Part shown: one piece after another, positions 2,796 to 32,658 of the stretch
How positions within the stretch are numbered: the first letter of the stretch is position 1
Layout of the letters: each line of letters begins with the position of its first letter
Sequence record: OZ035819.1
Length of the DNA: 43,420 bases
DNA from: Kagunavirus LM02P1
Direction: 5' to 3' (one strand)
The notes under the pieces: model-generated
The model's input: only the letters and a program-made list of their open reading frames with translations
Databases searched by the model: none
What the model was told of the DNA's origin: nothing
Program-made: the position numbers and the translations under genes

Positions 2796-3872
2796 ATGCT
2801 ATTAACTTTAGCGCCACAGGGTTTATTTATGAGCTTACTGACATCACTAATCAGCCACCAGATTTGGCTGCAACGCAACGCATCTGGCGAAGTGAAAGAC
2901 CTCGCACCGTTCATTCAGGAGATGCGGGATGAAATCAAACGGCAGGTGCTGTTGTTCGGCGACGACGGGAGAAGCACCGCGCGTCTCAATAAACTGTTAC
3001 GCGACTTAGAAGAAGCACTGACAGGGCTAGCCGGAGACTGGCAAACAAAGCTGACCGAAGACCTTAAGGAACTGGCAGCGTATGAGGCTGAGTGGAATGT
3101 GAAAACACTCACGGCTAACGTCAACGCTGAATTTGTTACCCCTACCGCTGAGCAGGTGTGGTCTGCAGCCGTGTTTCAACCGCTGGCGTTACGCGACAAG
3201 CCAGTTGATTTCACTAAGCTAATGGATGGCTGGGGTGAAACAGAAGTATCGCGACTGGTAACTGGTGTTAAGATGGGTTTCGTTCAAGGCCAAACCACAC
3301 GGCAGATTGTTAAAAATGTCGTTGGCGCTGGCGGACTGGCGGACATCTCTGAGCGCAACGCAGCTACGGTAACCCGCACCGCGCTGTCGCACATATCCAA
3401 CGAAGCACGCAACGAGACGTACCGTCAGAACGACGACATCATCGAGAAATATGAATGGGTATCGACGCTTGACAGCCGTACCAGTACGATTTGCAGAGCC
3501 AGGGACGGAATGACGTGGGAAATCGGTAAGGGGCCGATGCCCCCCGCCCATTTTGGCTGCCGAAGCACCACAGCACCTGTAATCAGTTCAGAATTCGACT
3601 TCCTCGATAAAGACGCAAAACGTGCAGCTAAGGGTGCGGACGGCGGAACTCAGGTAAGCGTGGACACCTCTTACTACGAGTTCCTAAAACAACAACCGGC
3701 ATGGTTTCAGGATGAAGCACTCGGTCCTGTTCGCGGTAAGATTTTCCGCAACAGCGGTATATCGCCGGAAGAGTTTCGCGTAATATCTGTAGATGGTTTC
3801 GGGAATCCGCTTACGCTTAAGCAGATGGCGGAACTCGATAAACGTGTTGCTGATTATCTGAAAGGGGAATAA
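2796..3872 (+). CDS. head morphogenesis protein (Mu F / SPP1 gp7-like minor capsid protein)
   Basis: 358 aa; conserved stretch WVSTLDSRTSTICRARDGMTWEI...PPAHFGCRS typical of this family; follows portal; alternative ATG at 2829. Confidence 0.75.
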   Translation: MLLTLAPQGLFMSLLTSLISHQIWLQRNASGEVKDLAPFIQEMRDEIKRQVLLFGDDGRSTARLNKLLRDLEEALTGLAGDWQTKLTEDLKELAAYEAEWNVKTLTANVNAEFVTPTAEQVWSAAVFQPLALRDKPVDFTKLMDGWGETEVSRLVTGVKMGFVQGQTTRQIVKNVVGAGGLADISERNAATVTRTALSHISNEARNETYRQNDDIIEKYEWVSTLDSRTSTICRARDGMTWEIGKGPMPPAHFGCRSTTAPVISSEFDFLDKDAKRAAKGADGGTQVSVDTSYYEFLKQQPAWFQDEALGPVRGKIFRNSGISPEEFRVISVDGFGNPLTLKQMAELDKRVADYLKGE

Positions 3873-4336: not shown

Positions 4337-4365
4337 AAGGCCCCGTTATGGGGCCTTAGTTTTAT
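4337..4365. terminator. bidirectional intrinsic terminator
   Basis: GC hairpin AAGGCCCC-gttat-GGGGCCTT flanked by T-runs on both strands, between convergent genes 3872..4333 (+) and 4362..4655 (-). Confidence 0.6.
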
Positions 4366-4655
4366 TTCTTTCCTAATGCTTTCTTGATTGCTTTGCCGGC
4401 CAGATTTAACGGATGGTCTTCATGGCAATCATCAGAAGATACCGCGCAAACATCCTCAACGTAATCGCGAAGCTGGCGAAGTGCTTCAAGTAACTCTGGT
4501 GCCGAGGCGATAAGTTTTGCGTTAGCCAATTTTACTGAGTCCTTTTCCCTCATACTCATTACCTCCGCCACATAAACATCACCCGCCCAGATAGCCGTTC
4601 CGCGATTAACCCATGCACCGTCTGTACCTTTAAATTCGTGTGTCATTTTTTTCAT
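4362..4655 (-). CDS. hypothetical protein (antisense moron, 97 aa)
   Basis: ATG at 4655 with own promoter at 4676-4704 and terminator at 4337-4365; no motif recognised. Confidence 0.55.
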   Translation of the reverse strand: MKKMTHEFKGTDGAWVNRGTAIWAGDVYVAEVMSMREKDSVKLANAKLIASAPELLEALRQLRDYVEDVCAVSSDDCHEDHPLNLAGKAIKKALGKK

Positions 4656-4675
4656 CTCCTGTTCAAGTTAACTGA

Positions 4676-4704
4676 ATAGTACCCTATTATATTGGGGTGT
4701 GCAA
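4676..4704 (-). promoter_or_regulatory. sigma70-type promoter (TTGCAC-N17-TACTAT) for 4362..4655
   Basis: Read on minus strand; core 27 nt (4673-4699) identical to 13905-13931. Confidence 0.55.
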
Positions 4705-10736: not shown

Positions 10737-11905
10737 ATATGGCTACAACTCCTTTTAAGGGCGCGACTACCGCGCAATTCTATGTGGCGGAAGTCACCCC
10801 GGGCGTAACACCGACTAACCCGGTATGGTCGCCGTTGCGTAACACAGGTGGCGTTCCTGCGATCACCCGCGACACGCTGACCTCCAACGAACTGGACGGC
10901 AGCCGTGAAACTACATCCATCCGCACCGGTAACAAACAGGTTAGCGGAGAATACGCCATCGAGCTTAGCTCGAAAAGCCAGGACGACTGGCTGGCGGGTG
11001 CTTTAGGCTCTACGTGGCAATCTGGTGTTTCCCTGTCCAGTCTGTCGATTACGGTCGCACCGGCGGGCAAGACGTTCACCCGTGCTGATGGCAGCTTTAT
11101 TACTGACGGCGTTGAAGTGGGCGACCTGATCGCGTTTACCGACTTGACGGGCGACAACGCAAAACCGTTTATCGTTACTGCGGTAGAGGCACTGGTAGTT
11201 ACCGGTGCGGGTATTCAACACACTCTGACCACCGAGACCGCTACTACCGCGGCTAAGACCGGCGACAAACTGGAAACTGGTAACGCGTGTAAGACGTTCT
11301 CTATCCTCACCTGGTACAAAGGCCAGTGCGGTGGGGCCGACGCGTACACACTGACCAAAGGTGTGGAAGTTTCTGGTTTCACTGTCGAGCAGGCTGTTAA
11401 CGCGATGGTAACAGGTAGCTTCCCGTTCATCGGACGTAGTCAGGAGATTCTCACCGAGCCGCCATCTGGTTCTGACTTCTCCTCTGTTACGTTTGGTGAT
11501 GAGCCGTTCTCCTCAGTTGACGTTTCTGTGTTCGATGGCTCTACGCCGTTGCGTTGCGATAGCCTTACCATCACCAACGACAACAGCGCGTCCGCACAGT
11601 TCGAACTCGGCAACACTAACGTTGCGTTTGTGGAACGTAGCCGCGCAGCTAACACCTTCTCCATCTCCGGTAAGCTGTATGACATGGCGATGATTCAGAA
11701 GTTTATCAACGAACAGCAGGTAGAGATTAACTCTATTCTGGCCGGGGTAAACGGTGCTATGTCTTTCAGCCTGAAACGTGCGGAACTTACGGCGGTTACG
11801 CCAGAGATTGGTGGGCCTGAGTCAATTACTCAGTCCATTGAAGGCCAGGCTACCGGTAACCAGTACCAGTCATCTATTGTTATTCAGCGTATCACCTACG
11901 CATAA
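10733..11905 (+). CDS. major tail protein (putative)
   Basis: 390-aa ORF, last structural gene before the chaperone/tape-measure block; followed by terminator. Confidence 0.5.
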   Translation: MNMATTPFKGATTAQFYVAEVTPGVTPTNPVWSPLRNTGGVPAITRDTLTSNELDGSRETTSIRTGNKQVSGEYAIELSSKSQDDWLAGALGSTWQSGVSLSSLSITVAPAGKTFTRADGSFITDGVEVGDLIAFTDLTGDNAKPFIVTAVEALVVTGAGIQHTLTTETATTAAKTGDKLETGNACKTFSILTWYKGQCGGADAYTLTKGVEVSGFTVEQAVNAMVTGSFPFIGRSQEILTEPPSGSDFSSVTFGDEPFSSVDVSVFDGSTPLRCDSLTITNDNSASAQFELGNTNVAFVERSRAANTFSISGKLYDMAMIQKFINEQQVEINSILAGVNGAMSFSLKRAELTAVTPEIGGPESITQSIEGQATGNQYQSSIVIQRITYA

Positions 11906-11909
11906 AACT

Positions 11910-11935
11910 AAGGCCCCTTCCGGGGCCTTTTTCTT
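11910..11935. terminator. bidirectional intrinsic terminator
   Basis: Hairpin AGGCCCC-ttcc-GGGGCCT followed by TTTTCTT; same hairpin family recurs at 4337, 22745, 25394 and 28778. Confidence 0.65.
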
Positions 11936-12107
11936 ATTCCTTCAATTGCATAGGGTAGAAGTTAACGAGTTCTCCTTTATCCCGAAGCTGTGAACATTCA
12001 TCTAACGCGTCTTCCTGGCTACTTACGGCATAGATATCATCCCACTCGTCCCATTCTTTGTCGTATACACGGATTACATATATTGTTTTCATTATAGTCT
12101 TACTCAT
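11934..12107 (-). CDS. small acidic protein (57 aa)
   Basis: ATG at 12107 with AGGAG RBS; D/E-rich (EWDEWDD...EDALDE); last gene of antisense island. Confidence 0.4.
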   Translation of the reverse strand: MSKTIMKTIYVIRVYDKEWDEWDDIYAVSSQEDALDECSQLRDKGELVNFYPMQLKE

Positions 12108-12330
12108 CAATATTACTCCTGTACTCCCGTAACTTCTCCAGACTTTCAATTGCTTCTGCCAAGTCTGTTCCGGTGTCCTTGTGACCCCGCAAGCCCATAC
12201 ACAGCAGTTTCTTTAAAGCATGCTGTAACGCCGGGTCGCGGATATCGAAGGCGCGCAGCACATCATAAACGTCTACTGTCATAGTGCTGCCGTGAGTGTT
12301 TGTCATTGTGCGGTTGTATTTATTTGTCAC
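12100..12330 (-). CDS. small hypothetical protein (76 aa from GTG; internal ATGs possible)
   Basis: Minus-strand ORF with overlapping start/stop coupling to neighbours. Confidence 0.4.
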   Translation of the reverse strand: MTNKYNRTMTNTHGSTMTVDVYDVLRAFDIRDPALQHALKKLLCMGLRGHKDTGTDLAEAIESLEKLREYRSNIDE

Positions 12331-12520
12331 TGTTAACTCTCTTAAATCTGGCTATGCCTGACTCGTTAATGTTGCCTATTTCAAAGAAGCTGCGATATTT
12401 AGGCGAATACATTTTTACATCGCCATTCTCTAGGGTGACCCCTTCATATACAGCACCTACTTCGAATCCATTTTTCTCCGCGTACGGACTAACCTCGGTA
12501 CATTCATACATGTCTTTCAT
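12320..12520 (-). CDS. small hypothetical protein (66 aa)
   Basis: ATG at 12520 overlaps the stop of 12517..13647 (ATGA coupling). Confidence 0.45.
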   Translation of the reverse strand: MKDMYECTEVSPYAEKNGFEVGAVYEGVTLENGDVKMYSPKYRSFFEIGNINESGIARFKRVNSDK

Positions 12521-13647
12521 CCCAGCATCTCCGGTGAAATAGTTAAACGTGCGACCTCGCCATATTCGGCGCTATAAGTAATTACATTTGCACTGCGGCC
12601 TGACATCCATCCGCCGCGGGAGGCGTAGGCGTCTTTAGCCGCTAAGGTGCGGTGTTGCTCAACAACCATGTTACGGCTTTCTACAATCTTCTGATGGTGC
12701 AGGTGGCCCACGTGGGCGTAGCTATAGGCACTCTCACCGAACGCTTTGCGGAACTTGGCAATCATAACCGGTTCGATAGCGTCGAAGCGTGCTTTATGTC
12801 CGTGATGAAAGAACAGCGTAGTTTTGCCGTGTTGTACCATCTTGTAAACATCCGGCGACGTATCGACGAACACACGCGGCTCGTTGTCGTACAGCGTACT
12901 GAACATCTCGGCTAACCAAATCATACCCGATTCGTCGTGGTTCCCTTGCACGATAAGCAGTCGGACGTTTTTATGTTTAACCAGTGCCATATCAACAACA
13001 CGGCGAACCATACGAATCATGTAGCGTACAAGTTTCTGATAGCGTGTGTCCGCATCAAGAACATGACCACTCGCTGGCGTAACTGCGTCCAGACTATCGA
13101 AGTGCGCAAGGTCGCCGAGCAGGTTAATAACTCCTGTTCCCGCGTCCGGTGCTTTCTGAAACGCCGCGTCGAACCATCGGGAGAACAGGTCTTCAGCAAT
13201 CTTCATATCCCAGTCGTCGCCGCTTTCATCGGCCCAGGCCAGCATACCGAGATGGAAATCAGATACCGTGTAAAGATTAAGTAGCTTGTCGTCGCGTTTG
13301 GCTCGAGTCGCTTTAACAGGCGCAACCGGCGTAATCTCTGACTTCATACCTTCGATTACGGCTTTCATCAACTCGACCTGACGTTCGGCGTCGGTGTCAG
13401 TCTTAACCCATTGCAGTTTGGTGTTGCCGAACTCATCCACCAGTGACGACGTCCCCTTAATCTTGTAGCCGTCCGGCACAAGGTGACTAACGTCGCGCCC
13501 GTGGCCTACGCCTTTCTTTGCCAGCTTCGCTTTACGGATACGAATAACGCGGTCTGAGATGCCGTATTTACGGGCGATGTCTACATTCTTCATCCCGGCG
13601 TTCAATTCTTCCTGTAACTGCTCGTCGGTTATTTTCTTCTGGGCCAT
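12517..13647 (-). CDS. HTH domain fused to calcineurin-like metallophosphoesterase (SbcD/Mre11-like or phosphodiesterase-like)
   Basis: 376 aa; N-terminal HTH NVDIARKYGISDRVIRIRKAKL; full metallophosphatase motif set SDFHLG, GDLAHFD, GNHDE, HHGH, GHLHH; RBS GAGGAAG. Confidence 0.7.
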   Translation of the reverse strand: MAQKKITDEQLQEELNAGMKNVDIARKYGISDRVIRIRKAKLAKKGVGHGRDVSHLVPDGYKIKGTSSLVDEFGNTKLQWVKTDTDAERQVELMKAVIEGMKSEITPVAPVKATRAKRDDKLLNLYTVSDFHLGMLAWADESGDDWDMKIAEDLFSRWFDAAFQKAPDAGTGVINLLGDLAHFDSLDAVTPASGHVLDADTRYQKLVRYMIRMVRRVVDMALVKHKNVRLLIVQGNHDESGMIWLAEMFSTLYDNEPRVFVDTSPDVYKMVQHGKTTLFFHHGHKARFDAIEPVMIAKFRKAFGESAYSYAHVGHLHHQKIVESRNMVVEQHRTLAAKDAYASRGGWMSGRSANVITYSAEYGEVARLTISPEMLG

Positions 13648-13685
13648 GCTTACTTCCTCGTGTTTAGGATTTGTCCTATACTAGC

Positions 13686-13892
13686 TCACTTCTCTTTGAC
13701 ATTCGAGTTGCACGCCCAGATTAAAATAAATACCCACGGCAGCAGAACCCAGCCAAGAAACAGATTAGCCATGAATATCGCTAATTTCGCTTTATGGTCG
13801 CGGAAATATGCAACCAGAAACGGCGCGAAATAAGCGAGCAGTGCAAACAGAATTAAGGAAACTGGTAAACTTGACATTTTAAACCCCTTCAT
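13686..13892 (-). CDS. small 2-TM membrane protein, superinfection-immunity (Imm)-like
   Basis: 68 aa; two hydrophobic helices around YFAPFLVAYFRDHKAKLAIFMANLFLGWVLLPWVFILIWA, matching the Imm-type signature as I recall it; first gene after promoter. Confidence 0.5.
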   Translation of the reverse strand: MKGFKMSSLPVSLILFALLAYFAPFLVAYFRDHKAKLAIFMANLFLGWVLLPWVFILIWACNSNVKEK

Positions 13893-13907
13893 TGTTGGTG
13901 TAAGTGA

Positions 13908-13936
13908 ATAGTACCCTATTATATTGGGGTGCGCAA
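13908..13936 (-). promoter_or_regulatory. sigma70-type promoter (TTGCGC-N17-TACTAT) for the antisense island
   Basis: Spacer identical to promoter at 4676-4704; sits 16 nt upstream of the ATG at 13892. Confidence 0.55.
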
Positions 13937-14043
13937 GTAATGTGATAGAATAATTTTGCGCCTAGTGTCGCACACGAAAAGCGGGTGGTTCCCGTCTGGC
14001 GCGTCAACCTTAACCTGTAACCTCTTAACCAAAGGATTAAAGA

Positions 14044-14460
14044 ATGAAACTTTCCGATTTTTATTACGAAGCTGAAGCTGAAAAGGGTGCACGTATGCCG
14101 ATACCATTAAAAGACGGTACCGATTCCGGGGAATGGCTTAATGTTGTTTCTCCTGAGGCAGACGTTGCCGTTAAGGCTATGCGCGCGTTCACCCTTGCAT
14201 ACCGGGCAGTGTTAGGGAAATTAAAACCGCTTCGTGATAAGTGCGAAGAGATGAAAGATTTCTCTGAATACAACCTGAAGATGGAAGACGCGGCGACGGA
14301 CCTTAACCGCCAGTTAGCACTTGAACTGGTTAACGGTTGGAGTCTCGACGATGAATTTAATAAAGAGAACCTGAATACTCTTTTCTCACAATATAAACGC
14401 CTCGCTGAACACGTTGTTGTTTTCCACAACGAACAGCTTCACCAATTGCAGGAAAAGTAG
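14044..14460 (+). CDS. tail assembly chaperone (G-like, putative)
   Basis: 138-aa acidic ORF immediately upstream of tape measure gene; RBS AAAGGA. Confidence 0.5.
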   Translation: MKLSDFYYEAEAEKGARMPIPLKDGTDSGEWLNVVSPEADVAVKAMRAFTLAYRAVLGKLKPLRDKCEEMKDFSEYNLKMEDAATDLNRQLALELVNGWSLDDEFNKENLNTLFSQYKRLAEHVVVFHNEQLHQLQEK

Positions 14461-14465
14461 ACGCG

Positions 14466-14825
14466 TTGCTCCAGTTTGCCCGTTGGAACTTCATAACCCG
14501 CCACAAACGGCAGGAGTTTGACAGTATTGCCGACGGGCATAAAGCCGCGCTAATTGCTATGGGGGTTATGCAAGATGCGCCGGAAGCAACGCAGGACACC
14601 GGGCCAGAATGCCCCCATGAGCTATTAACCACCTTCGAGAAGTACAGGGAAATCAAATTCACCCGCCGAGTTGACGACGATGGCATCAAGATGTACCCGC
14701 GCGAACAGTTAAGATGGTCAGATTTAGTGGCGTACAGTACCGTTTCAGGCCAGAATATAGACATGTTTGAATCTGACATCATCATGAGCTTAGACGCTAT
14801 TTTCGAGGGTAGAAACGATGGCTGA
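14466..14825 (+). CDS. second tail assembly chaperone ORF (T-like, putative)
   Basis: 119-aa ORF, TTG start without good RBS, -1 frame relative to upstream ORF and open from 14409; overlaps tape measure start. Confidence 0.35.
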   Translation: MLQFARWNFITRHKRQEFDSIADGHKAALIAMGVMQDAPEATQDTGPECPHELLTTFEKYREIKFTRRVDDDGIKMYPREQLRWSDLVAYSTVSGQNIDMFESDIIMSLDAIFEGRNDG

Positions 14826-29499: not shown

Positions 29500-29528
29500 A
29501 ATATAATAGCTAACTATTCAGGTGTCAA
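29500..29528 (-). promoter_or_regulatory. sigma70-type promoter TTGACA-N17-TATATT for SSB gene
   Basis: Near-consensus hexamers read on minus strand, ~50 nt upstream of the ATG at 29447. Confidence 0.6.
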
Positions 29529-29791: not shown

Positions 29792-30999
29792 TCAGGCCGT
29801 TTGTCGTCTGCCGTTGCAACGCATGGTGCGCCTGGCTTACGGGTGATGAAGTCTTTCAGTTCTTCTTCCGGTATTACTTTAACCGCTTCGGTAGGGGTCA
29901 TGAGCACTTCTTTAGTCAGCTTGTCGCCGTAGAGTTCTGCCACTTTCTCTGCGTCTTTCCACGCACGATTACCCGGCCTGCCTTCAACCAACTTGTACCC
30001 CGGCACTTTCTTACCGGAATGCAAAGCGGCGGCCATAGCTTTCTCAACCTTGTCGATGTGCTGGCGCAACAACGGCAACTTCTCATACTCAGATACGAGT
30101 TGCTCCGGCGTAAGTTCCAGTGCAAAGTCATCTTCCAGTTCTCCGGCCAGTACCGAATTAACGGTTTTTGTACGCGCGGCGCACTGTTCAGAGAACCGGC
30201 ACCACTGACAGCCATCGACCGACGGCCTGAAGTCCGACGCCTTCAGGTTCTTCTTACCGCGGAAATAGGCATCAAGAGCCAACAGCGCGCGTTTCTGGGC
30301 AAACTTAGCGAACAGCTCCAGCCCCTCAGCCGAGATGTCCCACTCCGACGCGCCACCCGCGTACGGCTGGAAGATAACCAGGCGAACTGTTGTTATGTGA
30401 TAACGTCTCTTGAGTCGGCGATAAACACCGAGAGCATAGAGCATAAGCTGTTTGTTTTCTTTCGCTTCGACACGATGCCGCCCTGTTTTAAGGTCGCCAA
30501 TAATTAGCATGTGCTCGTCTGTGTTCGCCAGCTCCTGGACGGCAACAAGGTCGGCGGTTCCGAATGTCTCGACGCCTTCGTAACCTGGATGCAGCACCTC
30601 AGTAAGATTGACGCGCATCTCCAGTTTTGCGTAAGTAGCCACGTCGATAATCGCTTTGCAGTAGTCGGTGTACTTTGTACACTGGTCAATCATGTCCGCC
30701 GTAATAAGTACCGCGCCTTTCATCGGACTGATTAGCGCCTTAATCTGGCCTTTACCCTCATCCAGTACATATGCACCTACTTCACGTGCTAACGGTAGCG
30801 CAGTTCCGCGGATATAGGCATTTAGGTGCACTTCTGCGATTGTATGACATGCGGTCCCTGTAACGGCAGCTTTACCCGATTCGTTAGGAATGTCTTTTTC
30901 ACACGCCAGTGATGCGGCACAGGTAAGCCACTTTTTAGCACCTGATGGCGACAGTAAGGCGTGCACATCGTTATTGCCGCCGCGTTCTTTTAAAATCAT
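29758..30999 (-). CDS. PD-(D/E)XK nuclease, DUF2800/Cas4-like
   Basis: 413 aa; N-terminal LSPSGAKKWLTCAAS motif as I recall for this family; sits between SSB and primase as in many phage replication modules. Confidence 0.55.
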   Translation of the reverse strand: MILKERGGNNDVHALLSPSGAKKWLTCAASLACEKDIPNESGKAAVTGTACHTIAEVHLNAYIRGTALPLAREVGAYVLDEGKGQIKALISPMKGAVLITADMIDQCTKYTDYCKAIIDVATYAKLEMRVNLTEVLHPGYEGVETFGTADLVAVQELANTDEHMLIIGDLKTGRHRVEAKENKQLMLYALGVYRRLKRRYHITTVRLVIFQPYAGGASEWDISAEGLELFAKFAQKRALLALDAYFRGKKNLKASDFRPSVDGCQWCRFSEQCAARTKTVNSVLAGELEDDFALELTPEQLVSEYEKLPLLRQHIDKVEKAMAAALHSGKKVPGYKLVEGRPGNRAWKDAEKVAELYGDKLTKEVLMTPTEAVKVIPEEELKDFITRKPGAPCVATADDKRPEWNRVTEEDLK

Positions 31000-31493
31000 T
31001 TCTCGGCTCCGTTAACTGTAAACCCGTATTTAATTTCGGCTTGCCTACGAGCCTTAGCCGCGTTCTCTAACCTATCGTAAGCACCTAAATAAATTGGCGC
31101 CCCATCTACATAAATTCTGGCGACCCACTTACCAGAGCGTTTATGAAACCCAACGCCTTTAACACCTGAAGCATTGTCAGTCCGTATTTTGGTGCCGTGG
31201 GCGATACTACCTCGTCGCATTTTTATAAGATTTTCTATTCTGTTATCAGTTCTATCTTTATTTGCGTGGCGAATTACTTCCCCTGGCGCTATCTCCCCAT
31301 TAAACATCTCCCAAACCACGTGGTGGATAAGTTTAGTAACCCCGTTAAAACGTAGTATTTTGAATTCACTTCCGTCGTTATCCACCCTCACACTCCCAGC
31401 TTCTTGGCCTATTTTTACCGATTTTGATGGTCTTATCTTCCAATACAATTTCCCTGTGACAGGGTCGTAGTCAAACAGTTCATGCCAATTCAT
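30996..31493 (-). CDS. HNH homing endonuclease with C-terminal AP2 DNA-binding domain
   Basis: HNH region HHVVWEMFNG...IRHANKDRTDNRIENL; AP2-like region GVKGVGFHKRSGKWVARIYVDG; ATG at 31493 with GGGAGG RBS; locally AT-rich by eye. Confidence 0.7.
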   Translation of the reverse strand: MNWHELFDYDPVTGKLYWKIRPSKSVKIGQEAGSVRVDNDGSEFKILRFNGVTKLIHHVVWEMFNGEIAPGEVIRHANKDRTDNRIENLIKMRRGSIAHGTKIRTDNASGVKGVGFHKRSGKWVARIYVDGAPIYLGAYDRLENAAKARRQAEIKYGFTVNGAEK

Positions 31494-31762
31494 ACCCTGA
31501 CCTCCCACTGGTCGATTAAATGCCGTGTCTTATGGTCACAATGCATCGCCCAGCTATACATCGACTCGAAGACATAAAAGTCACTTTTAACGAAAGTCGT
31601 GCGCTTAATCTGCGACAGGTGACGGCCTATATCTTTCGGCTTTGGTACTTTGCCTAAGAACGCCATCTCTTCCATCTGGTGCGCACCCGACGGCGCACGT
31701 AACAGCCACAACACCTCTGTGTTATCCCGGCGGTCGATGCCGCGGTAGAGTTGGTAAATCAT
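31490..31762 (-). CDS. hypothetical protein (90 aa)
   Basis: Stop overlaps HNH start (ATGA coupling). Confidence 0.4.
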   Translation of the reverse strand: MIYQLYRGIDRRDNTEVLWLLRAPSGAHQMEEMAFLGKVPKPKDIGRHLSQIKRTTFVKSDFYVFESMYSWAMHCDHKTRHLIDQWEVRV

Positions 31763-32348: not shown

Positions 32349-32378
32349 ACTATAATAGCTAACTATTCATGATGTCAA
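32349..32378 (-). promoter_or_regulatory. sigma70-type promoter TTGACA-N18-TATAGT for 31805..32317
   Basis: Read on minus strand; leader 32318-32348 shares 15-nt AAACGAGAGGAGAGA with the leader at 37094-37122. Confidence 0.5.
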
Positions 32379-32442
32379 TGGGCTTTTCTAAAATAATTAA
32401 TATGGTACTATTCACATATCAACTAACTAAGGAGTAATTGAC

Positions 32443-32658
32443 ATGCAACCATCTGAACTAGGCATCCGTGTAGAGCAACGCCGCAAAGAACTCGGCATCT
32501 CCCAGCGCCGTCTGGCTGTCCTGGCCGGTGTTTCTCAGGGAGCGATTAACCAGCTGGCACTTGGAGTAACTCAGGACGTCCGACCGGCGACGCTGTTTAA
32601 ACTGGCGGAAGTGCTGGAAGTAGACGCCAAGTGGCTGGCGTTCGGTGAAGGGGCTTAA
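32443..32658 (+). CDS. XRE-family helix-turn-helix transcriptional regulator
   Basis: 71 aa; HTH LGISQRRLAVLAGVSQGAINQLALG; RBS AAGGAG; only + strand gene inside the - strand replication module. Confidence 0.7.
   Translation: MQPSELGIRVEQRRKELGISQRRLAVLAGVSQGAINQLALGVTQDVRPATLFKLAEVLEVDAKWLAFGEGA

What the first reader, a model, noticed from the sequence alone, without database searches (positions are those of the whole stretch)
11910..13936. Antisense accessory island inside the tail gene cluster: Imm-like membrane protein, HTH-fused metallophosphoesterase and three small proteins
Five minus-strand genes (13686..13892, 12517..13647, 12320..12520, 12100..12330, 11934..12107) sit between the major tail gene and the tail chaperones, bounded by a bidirectional terminator (11910-11935) and a sigma70-type promoter (13908-13936) that is 27/27 nt identical to the promoter of the other antisense moron at 4676-4704. 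Nothing here is needed for morphogenesis. The combination of a superinfection-immunity-like 2-TM protein, a DNA-binding phosphoesterase and small acidic proteins looks like a host-takeover, superinfection-exclusion or anti-defence module; I do not recognise it as a described system.
Basis: partly seen in the sequence, partly recalled or inferred. Interest (0 to 1): 0.85.

Follow-up and report, generated by a model that had tools for sequence, protein, structure and literature searches.

The report
Conserved early antisense operon in Kagunavirus
The five backward-facing genes in the tail cluster are real, but they are a standard, already annotated early gene block of Kagunavirus/Jersey-like phages: a T4-Imm-type exclusion protein, a DNA-binding Mre11/SbcD-like nuclease found in over 2,000 phage genomes, and small add-on genes, not a new integrated system.

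Summary
Five tightly coupled minus-strand genes lie between a bidirectional terminator (11910-11929) and a promoter whose 27-nt core recurs exactly at 4673-4699.

The window is a Kagunavirus-like phage, about 90% identical to Escherichia phage Snoke. The same block, at the same place and in the same orientation, is annotated in hundreds of Guernseyvirinae genomes.

It is a mosaic, not one system:
- The 2-TM protein is a true T4 Imm homologue.
- The 376-aa protein is an HTH fused to a catalytically intact metallophosphoesterase. Its nearest folds and profiles are PolD-DP1, Mre11, SbcD and T4 gp47. The family occurs in 2,050 phage records (T1-like, Dhillonvirus, Webervirus, Vibrio phages), there without Imm and outside the tail genes.
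- The 76-aa protein is a strongly constrained, widespread small domain of unknown fold.
- The 66-aa and 57-aa genes fill variable slots.

Most likely this is an early operon that combines superinfection exclusion with a Rad50-independent, HTH-tethered DNA nuclease. By analogy with T4 gp46/47 and T5 A1, the nuclease would degrade host DNA and/or process phage DNA ends. That function is inferred, not shown.

It is a new member of a known kind, of modest interest. The main value is a testable candidate for the unidentified host-DNA-degrading enzyme of T1-like phages.

The parts
11910..11929 (.). Bidirectional intrinsic terminator: it ends the major tail gene on the + strand and the antisense operon on the - strand.
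   Evidence: 8-bp stem with 6 GC pairs and T-runs on both strands. A near-identical stem, AAGGCCCC...GGGGCCTT, occurs at 4337-4357.
11934..12107 (-). 57-aa acidic protein (pI 4.4) in the variable distal slot.
   Evidence: ORF; RBS AGGAG. No Pfam, PHROG or NCBIfam hit. 83-88% aa identity to Snoke and fBC-Eco01, with 5 synonymous versus 7 non-synonymous codon changes against Snoke. Replaced in relatives by a 40-aa ORF or a Rha/KilAC antirepressor-like gene.
12100..12330 (-). 76-aa conserved small protein (GTG start): a beta-hairpin plus three helices, third member of the conserved triad.
12320..12520 (-). 66-aa protein (pI 5.0) in the variable slot immediately after the MPE.
   Evidence: Found only in 25 Kagunavirus records. 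No family hits. The slot is empty in Shelanagig, holds a 162-aa HAD phosphatase in K-01 and an HNH endonuclease in wast.
12517..13647 (-). HTH-metallophosphoesterase, 376 aa (phrog_704 family).
   Evidence: phrog_704 at E=2.7e-167 over the full length. 2,050 phage records and 4,649 50%-identity cluster representatives. AF2 pLDDT 91.9.
13516..13626 (-). N-terminal three-helix HTH domain of the MPE protein (aa 8-44).
   Evidence: Helices 8-16, 21-28 and 32-44. Family members hit Sigma70_r4_2 (1.5e-9), GerE (2.4e-8) and HTH_8 (2.6e-7). Profile versus PDB gives GerE and RhlR.
12520..13293 (-). Metallophosphoesterase catalytic core (aa 119-376) with all metal-binding motifs intact.
13686..13877 (-). 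Imm-family 2-TM membrane protein (63 aa from the RBS-preceded ATG; the ORF can extend to 13892, 68 aa).
   Evidence: PF14373 at E=1.2e-12, 48 bits against a cut-off of 27.9. phrog_1039 'immunity to superinfection' at E=3.3e-23. BLASTP to T4 Imm E=2e-10. Two hydrophobic segments.
13905..13946 (-). Promoter of the operon: -35 ATCACA (13946-13941), -10 TATAAT (13923-13918), and the palindrome AATAGTACCCTATT (13907-13920) spanning -10 to +1.
   Evidence: 10 of 12 consensus matches. Exact 27-nt repeat; motif family. The same element was reported as a PHIRE 'phage promoter' in fBC-Eco01 (PMC9825357; annotated).
4673..4699 (-). Twin copy of the promoter core, driving the other antisense gene (4362-4655, 97 aa, phrog_1273, function unknown).
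   Evidence: The strict sigma-70 scan does not call a -35 here.

Best explanation
This is the ancestral antisense operon of Guernseyvirinae. It is read from a host-type promoter that belongs to the same motif family as promoters in the early/replication region. It bundles independent functions rather than one system.

1. **Imm-like protein.** The 63-aa, 2-TM protein inserts in the inner membrane. Like T4 Imm, it is expected to keep DNA of superinfecting phages from entering. Homology is shown; activity is inferred.
2. **HTH-MPE.** This is a binuclear-metal DNA phosphodiesterase/nuclease of the Mre11/SbcD/gp47/PolD-DP1 structural class. It has no capping domain and no Rad50/SbcC partner. Its own N-terminal HTH is expected to hold it on DNA. 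An intact active site and the fold are shown; the DNA substrate is inferred. Its most likely job is the one done by T4 gp46/47 and T5 A1: breaking down host chromosomal DNA for nucleotide supply and/or resecting DNA ends for recombination-dependent replication.
3. **76-aa protein.** A strongly constrained accessory factor linked to DNA metabolism. The mechanism is unknown.
4. **66-aa and 57-aa genes.** Lineage-specific cargo in two variable slots.

Sub-probabilities:
- Operon of separable functions: about 0.85.
- The MPE acts on DNA as a nuclease: about 0.65.
- Host-DNA degradation is its main role: about 0.3-0.35.
For: **Operon and early-type regulation.**
- The genes overlap and each has an RBS.
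- There is one promoter and one terminator.
- The promoter motif is shared with sites at 35.9 and 37.1 kb that face the + strand early ORFs, and with sites inside the replication cluster.
- In K1B4 RNA-seq, the Imm gene falls in the same temporal class as DNA polymerase and the methylases (PMC12645636).

**Ancestral and conserved.** The block is at the same position in Kagunavirus and Jerseyvirus and is under strong purifying selection.

**Separable parts.** The MPE is found without Imm in TLS, GeorgBuechner (Dhillonvirus) and a Vibrio phage.

**Imm.** PF14373 above the gathering score and E=2e-10 to T4 Imm.

**MPE as a nuclease.**
- Metal ligands are invariant.
- The AF2 model has pLDDT 92.
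- hhalign to T4 gp47 gives 68% over motifs I-VI.
- The HTH is supported in homologues.
- An HTH-less member in Campylobacter phage F360 sits next to DNA ligase and a Holliday-junction resolvase.

**Precedents for the role.**
- The T4 record describes gp46/47 as 'required for recombination and host-DNA degradation'.
- T5 A1, a putative metallophosphatase said to resemble the same nuclease classes, is necessary and sufficient for host DNA degradation (bioRxiv 10.64898/2026.04.02.716235).
- In T5, A1 is preceded by a 2-TM protein, and a Dmp phosphatase lies in the same pre-early block.
- In some Kagunaviruses a HAD phosphatase of the same PHROG as Dmp (phrog_415, E=3e-64 versus 4e-57) overlaps the MPE stop codon.
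- T1-like phages carry this MPE family and degrade the host genome with an unidentified enzyme (PMC11447400).
Against: - No biochemical or genetic data exist for any member of the family. The labels on homologues ('DNA repair exonuclease', 'DNA polymerase II small subunit', 'proof-reading exonuclease', 'Ser/Thr phosphatase') are all predictions.
- Sequence-profile similarity to T5 A1 is weak (35%, E=4e-4), and the two fall in different PHROGs.
- Host DNA degradation has not been reported for Kagunavirus.
- Dhillonvirus has a 75%-identical MPE, yet behaves differently from Guernseyvirinae towards ApeA, which senses deoxydinucleotides.
- The only transcriptome study classes the Imm gene as 'late' under an unusual scheme, so early timing is inferred from promoter type only.
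- How the phage's own DNA would escape such a nuclease is unexplained.
Confidence: 0.5

Rival explanations
1. The HTH-MPE is purely a phage DNA replication, recombination or repair nuclease. It would process ends, hairpins or concatemer junctions, possibly at a specific site bound by the HTH, and play no part in host takeover. The rest of the block is co-transcribed cargo.
For: - Core-gene behaviour: 2,050 records, full-length conservation and strong purifying selection.
- Homing HNH genes repeatedly sit beside it, as they do beside other conserved genes.
- In F360 the neighbours are DNA ligase and a Holliday-junction resolvase.
- Homologues of the 76-aa protein are fused to BRCT or lie beside a Holliday-junction resolvase or RdgC.
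- It shares its promoter family with the replication genes.
- In Dhillonvirus it is the last annotated gene before the terminase genes on the genome map.
- There is a weak NCBIfam hit to the ligase-associated endonuclease PdeM (E=0.12).
Against: - There is no Rad50/SbcC partner and no capping domain.
- The phage already encodes a DUF2800 PD-(D/E)XK nuclease and an SSB in its replication module.
- In Guernseyvirinae the gene is placed with an exclusion protein outside the replication module.
- T4 gp46/47 shows that the two roles need not be exclusive.
Confidence: 0.3
2. The MPE is a phosphodiesterase acting on small molecules or on RNA ends. It would either destroy cyclic-nucleotide immune signals, or heal RNA 2',3'-cyclic-phosphate ends together with the PNKP-type HAD phosphatase to counter anticodon nucleases. 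In that case the block is an anti-defence module.
For: - Fold hits include the cyclic-nucleotide phosphodiesterase Rv0805, and MJ0936 and YfcE.
- The HAD protein adjacent in some relatives matches PF25109 HAD_PNKP (E=8.7e-20) and T4 PseT-like proteins at about 30% identity.
Against: - A conserved DNA-binding HTH is fused to the enzyme in most of the 65 diverse homologues aligned.
- The best structural and profile matches are DNA nucleases.
- There is no kinase or ligase in the block.
- In T1-like phages the HAD partner overlaps a dNMP kinase gene, which points to nucleotide metabolism.
- PADLOC gave no hit, although that library holds defence rather than anti-defence models.
- BASEL Kagunaviruses are reported as highly sensitive to RM and variably sensitive to Old, with no sign of unusual resistance to the defence systems tested (PMC11990801).
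Confidence: 0.08
3. The five genes form one integrated, previously undescribed system whose parts need each other.
For: Tight translational coupling and a single promoter and terminator. The Imm-MPE-76aa order is kept throughout Guernseyvirinae.
Against: - The MPE occurs without Imm and without the 76-aa gene in the T1-like, Dhillonvirus and Vibrio phage contexts examined.
- The 76-aa domain occurs alone in unrelated phages.
- The 66-aa and 57-aa genes are replaceable.
Confidence: 0.04
4. The HTH-MPE is mainly a transcription factor that binds the AATAG-N4-CTATT palindrome over the -10/+1 of the phage promoter family and switches early transcription off.
For: - An HTH of the sigma-r4/GerE/Fis type.
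- A weak hit to a 'late transcriptional activator' PHROG (E=1e-3).
- Its own promoter carries the palindrome.
- T5 A1 is reported to damp pre-early promoters.
Against: - Dhillonvirus GeorgBuechner has a 75%-identical protein but no copy of the palindrome or of the promoter core in 44 kb.
- The catalytic residues are invariant, which a pure regulator would not need.
Confidence: 0.05

Closest known systems
The annotated Imm / phosphoesterase / hypothetical-gene block of Kagunavirus and Jerseyvirus genomes (e.g. Escherichia phages Snoke MK931441 and fBC-Eco01 OM272052, Salmonella phage Shelanagig MK931446)
   Same: Same five genes in Snoke and fBC-Eco01. Same position between the tail tube gene and the tail assembly chaperone, same antisense orientation, and the same terminator and promoter annotations. 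About 90% nt and 97-100% aa identity for the MPE and the 76-aa protein.
   Different: The window is a distinct, roughly 90%-identical genome. The first TM helix of Imm has diverged. Other relatives carry a HAD phosphatase, an HNH endonuclease or an antirepressor-like gene in the variable slots.
T4 Imm (immunity to superinfection), Pfam PF14373
   Same: A small inner-membrane protein with two TM segments. PF14373 is above the gathering score and BLASTP gives E=2e-10, 28% identity over 54 aa.
   Different: 63 aa instead of 83. Exclusion activity and target range are untested. There is no Sp-like partner.
T4 gp47/gp46 and bacterial SbcD/SbcC, Mre11/Rad50
   Different: No capping domain, no Rad50/SbcC ATPase partner in the window, and an N-terminal HTH plus a beta-hairpin/helix module instead. 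Sequence similarity is at superfamily level only.
T5 pre-early module: A2 (DNA-binding), T5.005 (2-TM protein), A1 (putative metallophosphatase, host-DNA degradation) and Dmp (5'-dNMPase)
   Same: - A short 2-TM protein lies directly upstream of a divergent MPE that resembles DSB-repair and proofreading nucleases.
- A DNA-binding function is associated with it: separate A2 in T5, a fused HTH here.
- A HAD phosphatase of the same PHROG (phrog_415) lies next to the MPE in some Kagunaviruses, and next to A1 in Vibrio D332 and Aeromonas AhSzq-1.
   Different: - Different PHROGs (704 versus 1745).
- hhalign reaches only 35%, E=4e-4.
- A1 is 556 aa with an unrelated N-terminal half.
- T5.005 is not an Imm-family protein.
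- This window has no Dmp-like gene.
- The resemblance is one of architecture and context, not demonstrated homology.
[quoted passage not shown]
   Different: No OB-fold domain is seen in the model. The phage polymerase is family A, with no DP2-like catalytic subunit. The label is a fold-level transfer, not an orthology.

Membership tests
Imm_superinfect (PF14373, T4 Imm family) | Match to the Pfam model above the gathering score | tested here: met
   48 bits against a cut-off of 27.9, E=1.2e-12. phrog_1039 at E=3.3e-23. Direct BLASTP to T4 Imm E=2e-10.
Imm_superinfect (PF14373, T4 Imm family) | Small protein with two transmembrane segments | tested here: met
   Kyte-Doolittle 19-residue windows exceed 2.0 around residues 8-27 and 37-56.
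Imm_superinfect (PF14373, T4 Imm family) | Blocks DNA entry of superinfecting phage | not testable with these tools
   Needs plasmid expression and phage challenge.
Calcineurin-like metallophosphoesterase superfamily | Metal-binding motifs DxH / GD / GNH(D/E) / H / GH / GxH | tested here: met
   D130, H132, G178, D179, N236, H237, H282, G314 and H317 are invariant, and H315 nearly so, in 65 homologues of 33-49% identity.
Calcineurin-like metallophosphoesterase superfamily | Beta-sandwich MPE fold | tested here: met
Calcineurin-like metallophosphoesterase superfamily | Pfam Metallophos or Metallophos_2 above the gathering score | tested here: not met
   21.8 bits against a cut-off of 27, and 18.5 against 21.5. 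This is a divergent family. Motifs and fold still place it in the superfamily.
phrog_704 ('DNA repair exonuclease', predicted name only) | Full-length profile match | tested here: met
   E=2.7e-167, residues 3-375 on profile positions 1-389 of 390.
Mre11/SbcD/T4 gp47 nucleases | Nuclease-domain similarity | tested here: inconclusive
Mre11/SbcD/T4 gp47 nucleases | C-terminal capping domain | tested here: not met
Mre11/SbcD/T4 gp47 nucleases | Rad50/SbcC/gp46 ATPase partner encoded alongside | tested here: not met
   The large proteins of the window are PolA, an AAA_25 primase-helicase, an SNF2 helicase, a DUF2800 nuclease and tail proteins. None is an SMC-like ATPase.
T5 A1 family (phrog_1745) | Sequence or profile membership | tested here: not met
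   No phrog_1745 hit. Profile-profile comparison with 8 diverse A1 homologues gives 35%, E=4e-4, over 67 columns. The motif order is collinear, but this is no better than for gp47.
T5 A1 family (phrog_1745) | Causes host-DNA degradation | not testable with these tools
   Needs ectopic expression with DAPI, flow cytometry or gel assays, as in bioRxiv 10.64898/2026.04.02.716235.
PolD DP1 ('DNA polymerase II small subunit') | OB-fold plus PDE domain, working with a DP2 catalytic subunit | tested here: not met
Known anti-phage defence systems (PADLOC-DB) | Any protein of the block matches a defence-system model | tested here: not met
   No hit at E<=1 for any of the six proteins searched.

The most novel reading that the evidence does not exclude
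The HTH-metallophosphoesterase family (phrog_704; TLS gp66; this gene) may be the long-sought enzyme that destroys the host chromosome in T1-like and allied small virulent siphophages. It would be a Rad50-independent Mre11-like nuclease brought to DNA by its own HTH, and so the functional counterpart of T5 A1 and T4 gp46/47. Where a Dmp-like HAD phosphatase or a dNMP kinase is present, it would be coupled to nucleotide recycling.
Probability: 0.3. Interest if true: 0.6.

Novelty: new member of a known kind. Interest (0 to 1): 0.3.

Why it matters
As a feature of this genome it is ordinary. It is the standard early antisense block of Guernseyvirinae, already annotated in public records.

What remains worth knowing is the role of the HTH-metallophosphoesterase:
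- It is one of the most widespread uncharacterised enzymes of small virulent coliphages, Klebsiella, Salmonella and Vibrio siphophages (about 2,050 phage records).
- Its database names are contradictory.
- A 2024 re-annotation of phage TLS states that the enzymes behind host-genome degradation in T1-like phages are still unidentified.

The family is a concrete candidate that can be tested cheaply. It also matters for phage therapy, where Kagunavirus, Jerseyvirus, Webervirus and T1-like phages are common and host-DNA degradation limits transduction.

Tried and rejected
1. **Defence or anti-defence identity.** PADLOC gave no hits for the five island proteins or the 97-aa protein at 4362-4655.
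2. **Direct sequence match to solved structures.** For the MPE, a single-sequence search found only noise. A profile search found only marginal GerE and SbcD/Mre11 hits.
3. **Specific homology to T5 A1.**
   - I built an 8-member A1 alignment.
   - hhalign reached only 35%, and global mode failed.
   - The T4 gp47 control scored higher.
   - I therefore keep A1 as a functional analogy only.
4. **T5.005 versus Imm, and T5 A2 versus the HTH.** There is no convincing similarity, and T5.005 falls in a different PHROG from Imm (phrog_4820 versus phrog_1039).
5. **HTH-MPE as binder of the promoter palindrome.** Rejected, because Dhillonvirus has the protein but not the motif.
7. **Essentiality data.** The CiPGr genome-reduction paper used a Skatevirus, not a Guernseyvirinae phage, and its supplements are not held.
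8. **Literature searches for a characterised function of the family.** These found only annotation-level mentions.
9. **ApeA sensitivity as a proxy for host-DNA degradation.** Not informative: Guernseyvirinae are sensitive and Dhillonvirus is resistant, although both carry the MPE.
Full report
**1. What is there.**
- The window is a Kagunavirus-like siphophage genome. Bases 1-25000 match Escherichia phage Snoke and relatives at about 90% identity over about 84% of the length. The island itself matches 447 phage records, 326 of them Salmonella and 103 Escherichia.
- The five minus-strand ORFs are present as described.
- They overlap or abut (ATGA, 11-nt and 8-nt overlaps), and the MPE, 66-aa, 76-aa and 57-aa starts and the internal Imm start each have a Shine-Dalgarno sequence.
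- The block ends at a GC-rich hairpin at 11910-11929 that has T-runs on both strands.
- It begins at a promoter with a perfect TATAAT and an ATCACA -35 at 17-nt spacing.
- The 27-nt promoter core is repeated exactly at 4673-4699, against 0 matches in shuffles.
- The Imm gene most likely starts at the second ATG, 13877.

**2. The block is already annotated and ancestral.**
- Snoke and fBC-Eco01 carry the same five genes, the same terminators and, in fBC-Eco01, the same predicted promoter. The annotations read 'superinfection immunity protein', 'phosphoesterase' or 'DNA polymerase II small subunit', and three hypothetical proteins.
- Jerseyviruses (wast, Shelanagig) have the block at the same place between the major tail gene and the tail assembly chaperone.
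- The order Imm, HTH-MPE, 76-aa is constant across these genomes. Two slots vary.
  - After the MPE: nothing, the 66-aa gene (only 25 records), a 162-aa HAD phosphatase (K-01) or an HNH endonuclease (wast).
  - After the 76-aa gene: the 57-aa gene, a 40-aa ORF, or a Rha/KilAC antirepressor-like gene.
- Purifying selection is strong on the MPE (80-85 synonymous versus 9-10 non-synonymous codon changes) and extreme on the 76-aa gene (18-22 versus 0). The 57-aa gene is weakly constrained, and the first TM helix of Imm has diverged while the second is identical.
- The small-gene end has lower G+C, 44-45% against 51-57% in the adjacent tail genes upstream.

**3. The promoter.**
- The shared element is not special to two 'morons'. 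A looser search finds seven related sites: 4673 and 13905 on the minus strand, and 29502, 32351, 32396, 35882 and 37078 on the plus strand.
- The palindrome AATAG-N4-CTATT, which spans -10 to about +1, occurs eight times against 0.045 expected.
- The fBC-Eco01 paper reported the same consensus, tgAATAGTa-ccTATTat-T, as seven PHIRE 'phage promoters' (PMC9825357).
- The sites at 35.9 and 37.1 kb face small + strand ORFs, so the island shares its promoter type with the early/replication region.
- The only transcriptome of a Kagunavirus (K1B4) puts the Imm gene in the same temporal class as DNA polymerase and the methylases, although the authors call that class 'late' (PMC12645636). Early timing is therefore an inference.

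**4. The Imm-like protein.** It passes the PF14373 gathering score and matches phrog_1039. It aligns to T4 Imm with E=2e-10 and has two hydrophobic segments. Membership is met; exclusion activity is untested.

**5. The HTH-metallophosphoesterase.**
- It matches phrog_704 end to end (E=2.7e-167).
- tblastn finds it in 2,050 phage records: Escherichia 560, Klebsiella 468, Salmonella 373, Vibrio 254 and others, with 1,959 covering at least 80% of the protein. An exhaustive HMM search finds 4,649 cluster representatives.
- In 65 homologues of 33-49% identity, all metal-binding residues are invariant. The N-terminal domain hits sigma-70 region 4, GerE, Fis and other HTH models in many members.
- The AF2 model is confident, pLDDT 91.9. 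It shows a three-helix HTH, a linker, a long beta-hairpin plus helix, and then the MPE core to the C-terminus.
- The family profile aligns with T4 gp47 over motifs I-VI (68%, E=4.6e-5).
- There is no capping domain, and the window encodes no Rad50/SbcC-like protein. Its large enzymes are PolA, an AAA_25 primase-helicase, an SNF2 helicase, a DUF2800 PD-(D/E)XK nuclease, an Enc34-type SSB and an HNH-AP2 endonuclease.
- Outside Guernseyvirinae the gene is not in the tail cluster and has no Imm neighbour.
  - In TLS it lies between an HNH gene and the holin.
  - In Dhillonvirus it is the last annotated gene, after the lysis genes and before the terminase genes on the genome map.
  - In a Vibrio phage it lies beside an HNH gene.
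  - In Campylobacter phage F360 an HTH-less member (hhalign 100%, E=4e-50) follows DNA ligase and a Holliday-junction resolvase.

**6. How it most likely works.**
- Shown: an intact binuclear-metal active site, a nuclease-class MPE fold, a fused DNA-binding domain, core-gene conservation, and DNA-metabolism neighbours.
- Inferred: it is a DNA nuclease that uses its own HTH in place of a Rad50 clamp.
- Two well-studied phage precedents suggest its role.
  - T4 gp46/47 is 'required for recombination and host-DNA degradation' (T4 record).
  - T5 A1 is a putative metallophosphatase said to resemble DSB-repair and proofreading nucleases. It is necessary and sufficient for host-DNA degradation.
- The T5 pre-early block has a similar layout: a DNA-binding protein, a 2-TM protein, A1, and a Dmp phosphatase further downstream. 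In Vibrio D332 and Aeromonas AhSzq-1, Dmp directly follows A1.
- In K-01-type Kagunaviruses a HAD phosphatase of the same PHROG as Dmp (phrog_415) overlaps the MPE stop codon. In T1-like phages that HAD gene overlaps a dNMP kinase gene.
- T1 and TLS degrade the host genome, and the responsible early gene products have not been identified (PMC11447400). They carry this MPE.
- Against a specific link to A1: the PHROGs differ, hhalign reaches only 35%, and the gp47 control scores higher. I therefore claim 'works like', not 'is a member of'.

**7. Rivals.**
- A purely replicative or recombinational role is almost as likely (0.3), and the T4 precedent shows it is not exclusive of host degradation.
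- A small-molecule or RNA-end phosphodiesterase (anti-defence) role is unlikely, given the conserved HTH and the nuclease-class matches (0.08).
- A single integrated five-gene system is contradicted by the independent distributions of the parts (0.04).
- A regulator of the palindromic promoters is contradicted by Dhillonvirus, which has the protein but no palindrome (0.05).

**8. The small proteins.**
- Its homologues occur in 773 phage records. They are fused to a BRCT domain in Aeromonas phage AVP3, or lie beside a Holliday-junction resolvase or RdgC. That is a weak pointer to DNA metabolism.
- The 66-aa and 57-aa proteins have no detectable relatives outside Kagunavirus and close kin.

**9. 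Verdict.**
It is wrong on novelty and on unity.
- This is a new member of a known, annotated gene block.
- Interest is modest (0.3). It rests on the uncharacterised but very widespread HTH-MPE family as a testable candidate for host-DNA degradation in T1-like and related phages.

Noticed in passing
window 4675, 13907, 25707, 29505, 32354, 35885, 36765, 37081: The palindrome AATAG-N4-CTATT occurs 8 times against 0.045 expected. At seven of the sites found with the longer promoter-core pattern it overlaps a TATAAT-like -10 and the likely start site. This looks like an operator shared by a whole promoter family. No phage RNA polymerase is evident among the large ORFs, although the fBC-Eco01 paper ascribed the motif to one. 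The binding factor is unknown.
   Followed up: partly
window 4337-4357 and 11910-11929: The two antisense units end at terminators with the same stem (AAGGCCCC...GGGGCCTT) and the same AGTTTTAT tail, but in opposite orientation relative to the genome. The terminator appears to be a reused cassette, like the promoter.
   Followed up: partly
window 4362-4655 (-): The second antisense gene sits inside the head/packaging region. It encodes 97 aa, matches phrog_1273 (unknown function), and has the identical promoter core and its own bidirectional terminator.
   Followed up: partly
window 32351-32414 and 32443-32658 (+): Two tandem promoter-motif copies on the + strand lie inside the minus-strand replication cluster, just upstream of a 71-aa + strand ORF with a good RBS. 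This is another small antisense unit. The copy at 29502 has no obvious ORF downstream and could drive an antisense RNA.
   Followed up: no
window 13686-13877 versus Snoke and fBC-Eco01: The first TM helix of Imm is highly diverged (8 synonymous versus 17 non-synonymous codon changes), while the second helix and the C-terminus are identical. The pattern fits diversifying pressure on one face of an exclusion protein.
   Followed up: partly
window 13924-13952 (+): By eye, a possible + strand promoter (TTGGGG, 16 nt, extended -10 TGaTAGAAT) overlaps the island promoter face to face. It could restart transcription of the tail chaperone and tape-measure genes after the terminator at 11910. The consensus scan did not call it.
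   Followed up: no
L009 (T5) 3473-3670 and L022 (T4) 12445-12585: In T5 (T5.005, 2 TM) and in T4 (47.1, a predicted membrane protein), a very small membrane protein is encoded immediately upstream of the MPE nuclease gene (A1, gp47), as Imm is here. This may be coincidence or a recurring pairing.
   Followed up: partly
window 30996-31508 (-): An HNH_3 plus AP2-domain endonuclease sits inside the replication module, probably a homing endonuclease. HNH genes also sit beside the HTH-MPE in TLS, in wast and in a Vibrio phage.
   Followed up: no
window 14044-14460 and 14466-14825 (+): This is the tail assembly chaperone pair just downstream of the island. Shelanagig annotates the equivalent pair as a programmed frameshift product.
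   Followed up: no
window 11800-12600: G+C drops to 44-45% over the three small genes, against 51-57% in the adjacent tail genes upstream. This fits later acquisition of the variable cargo.
   Followed up: partly
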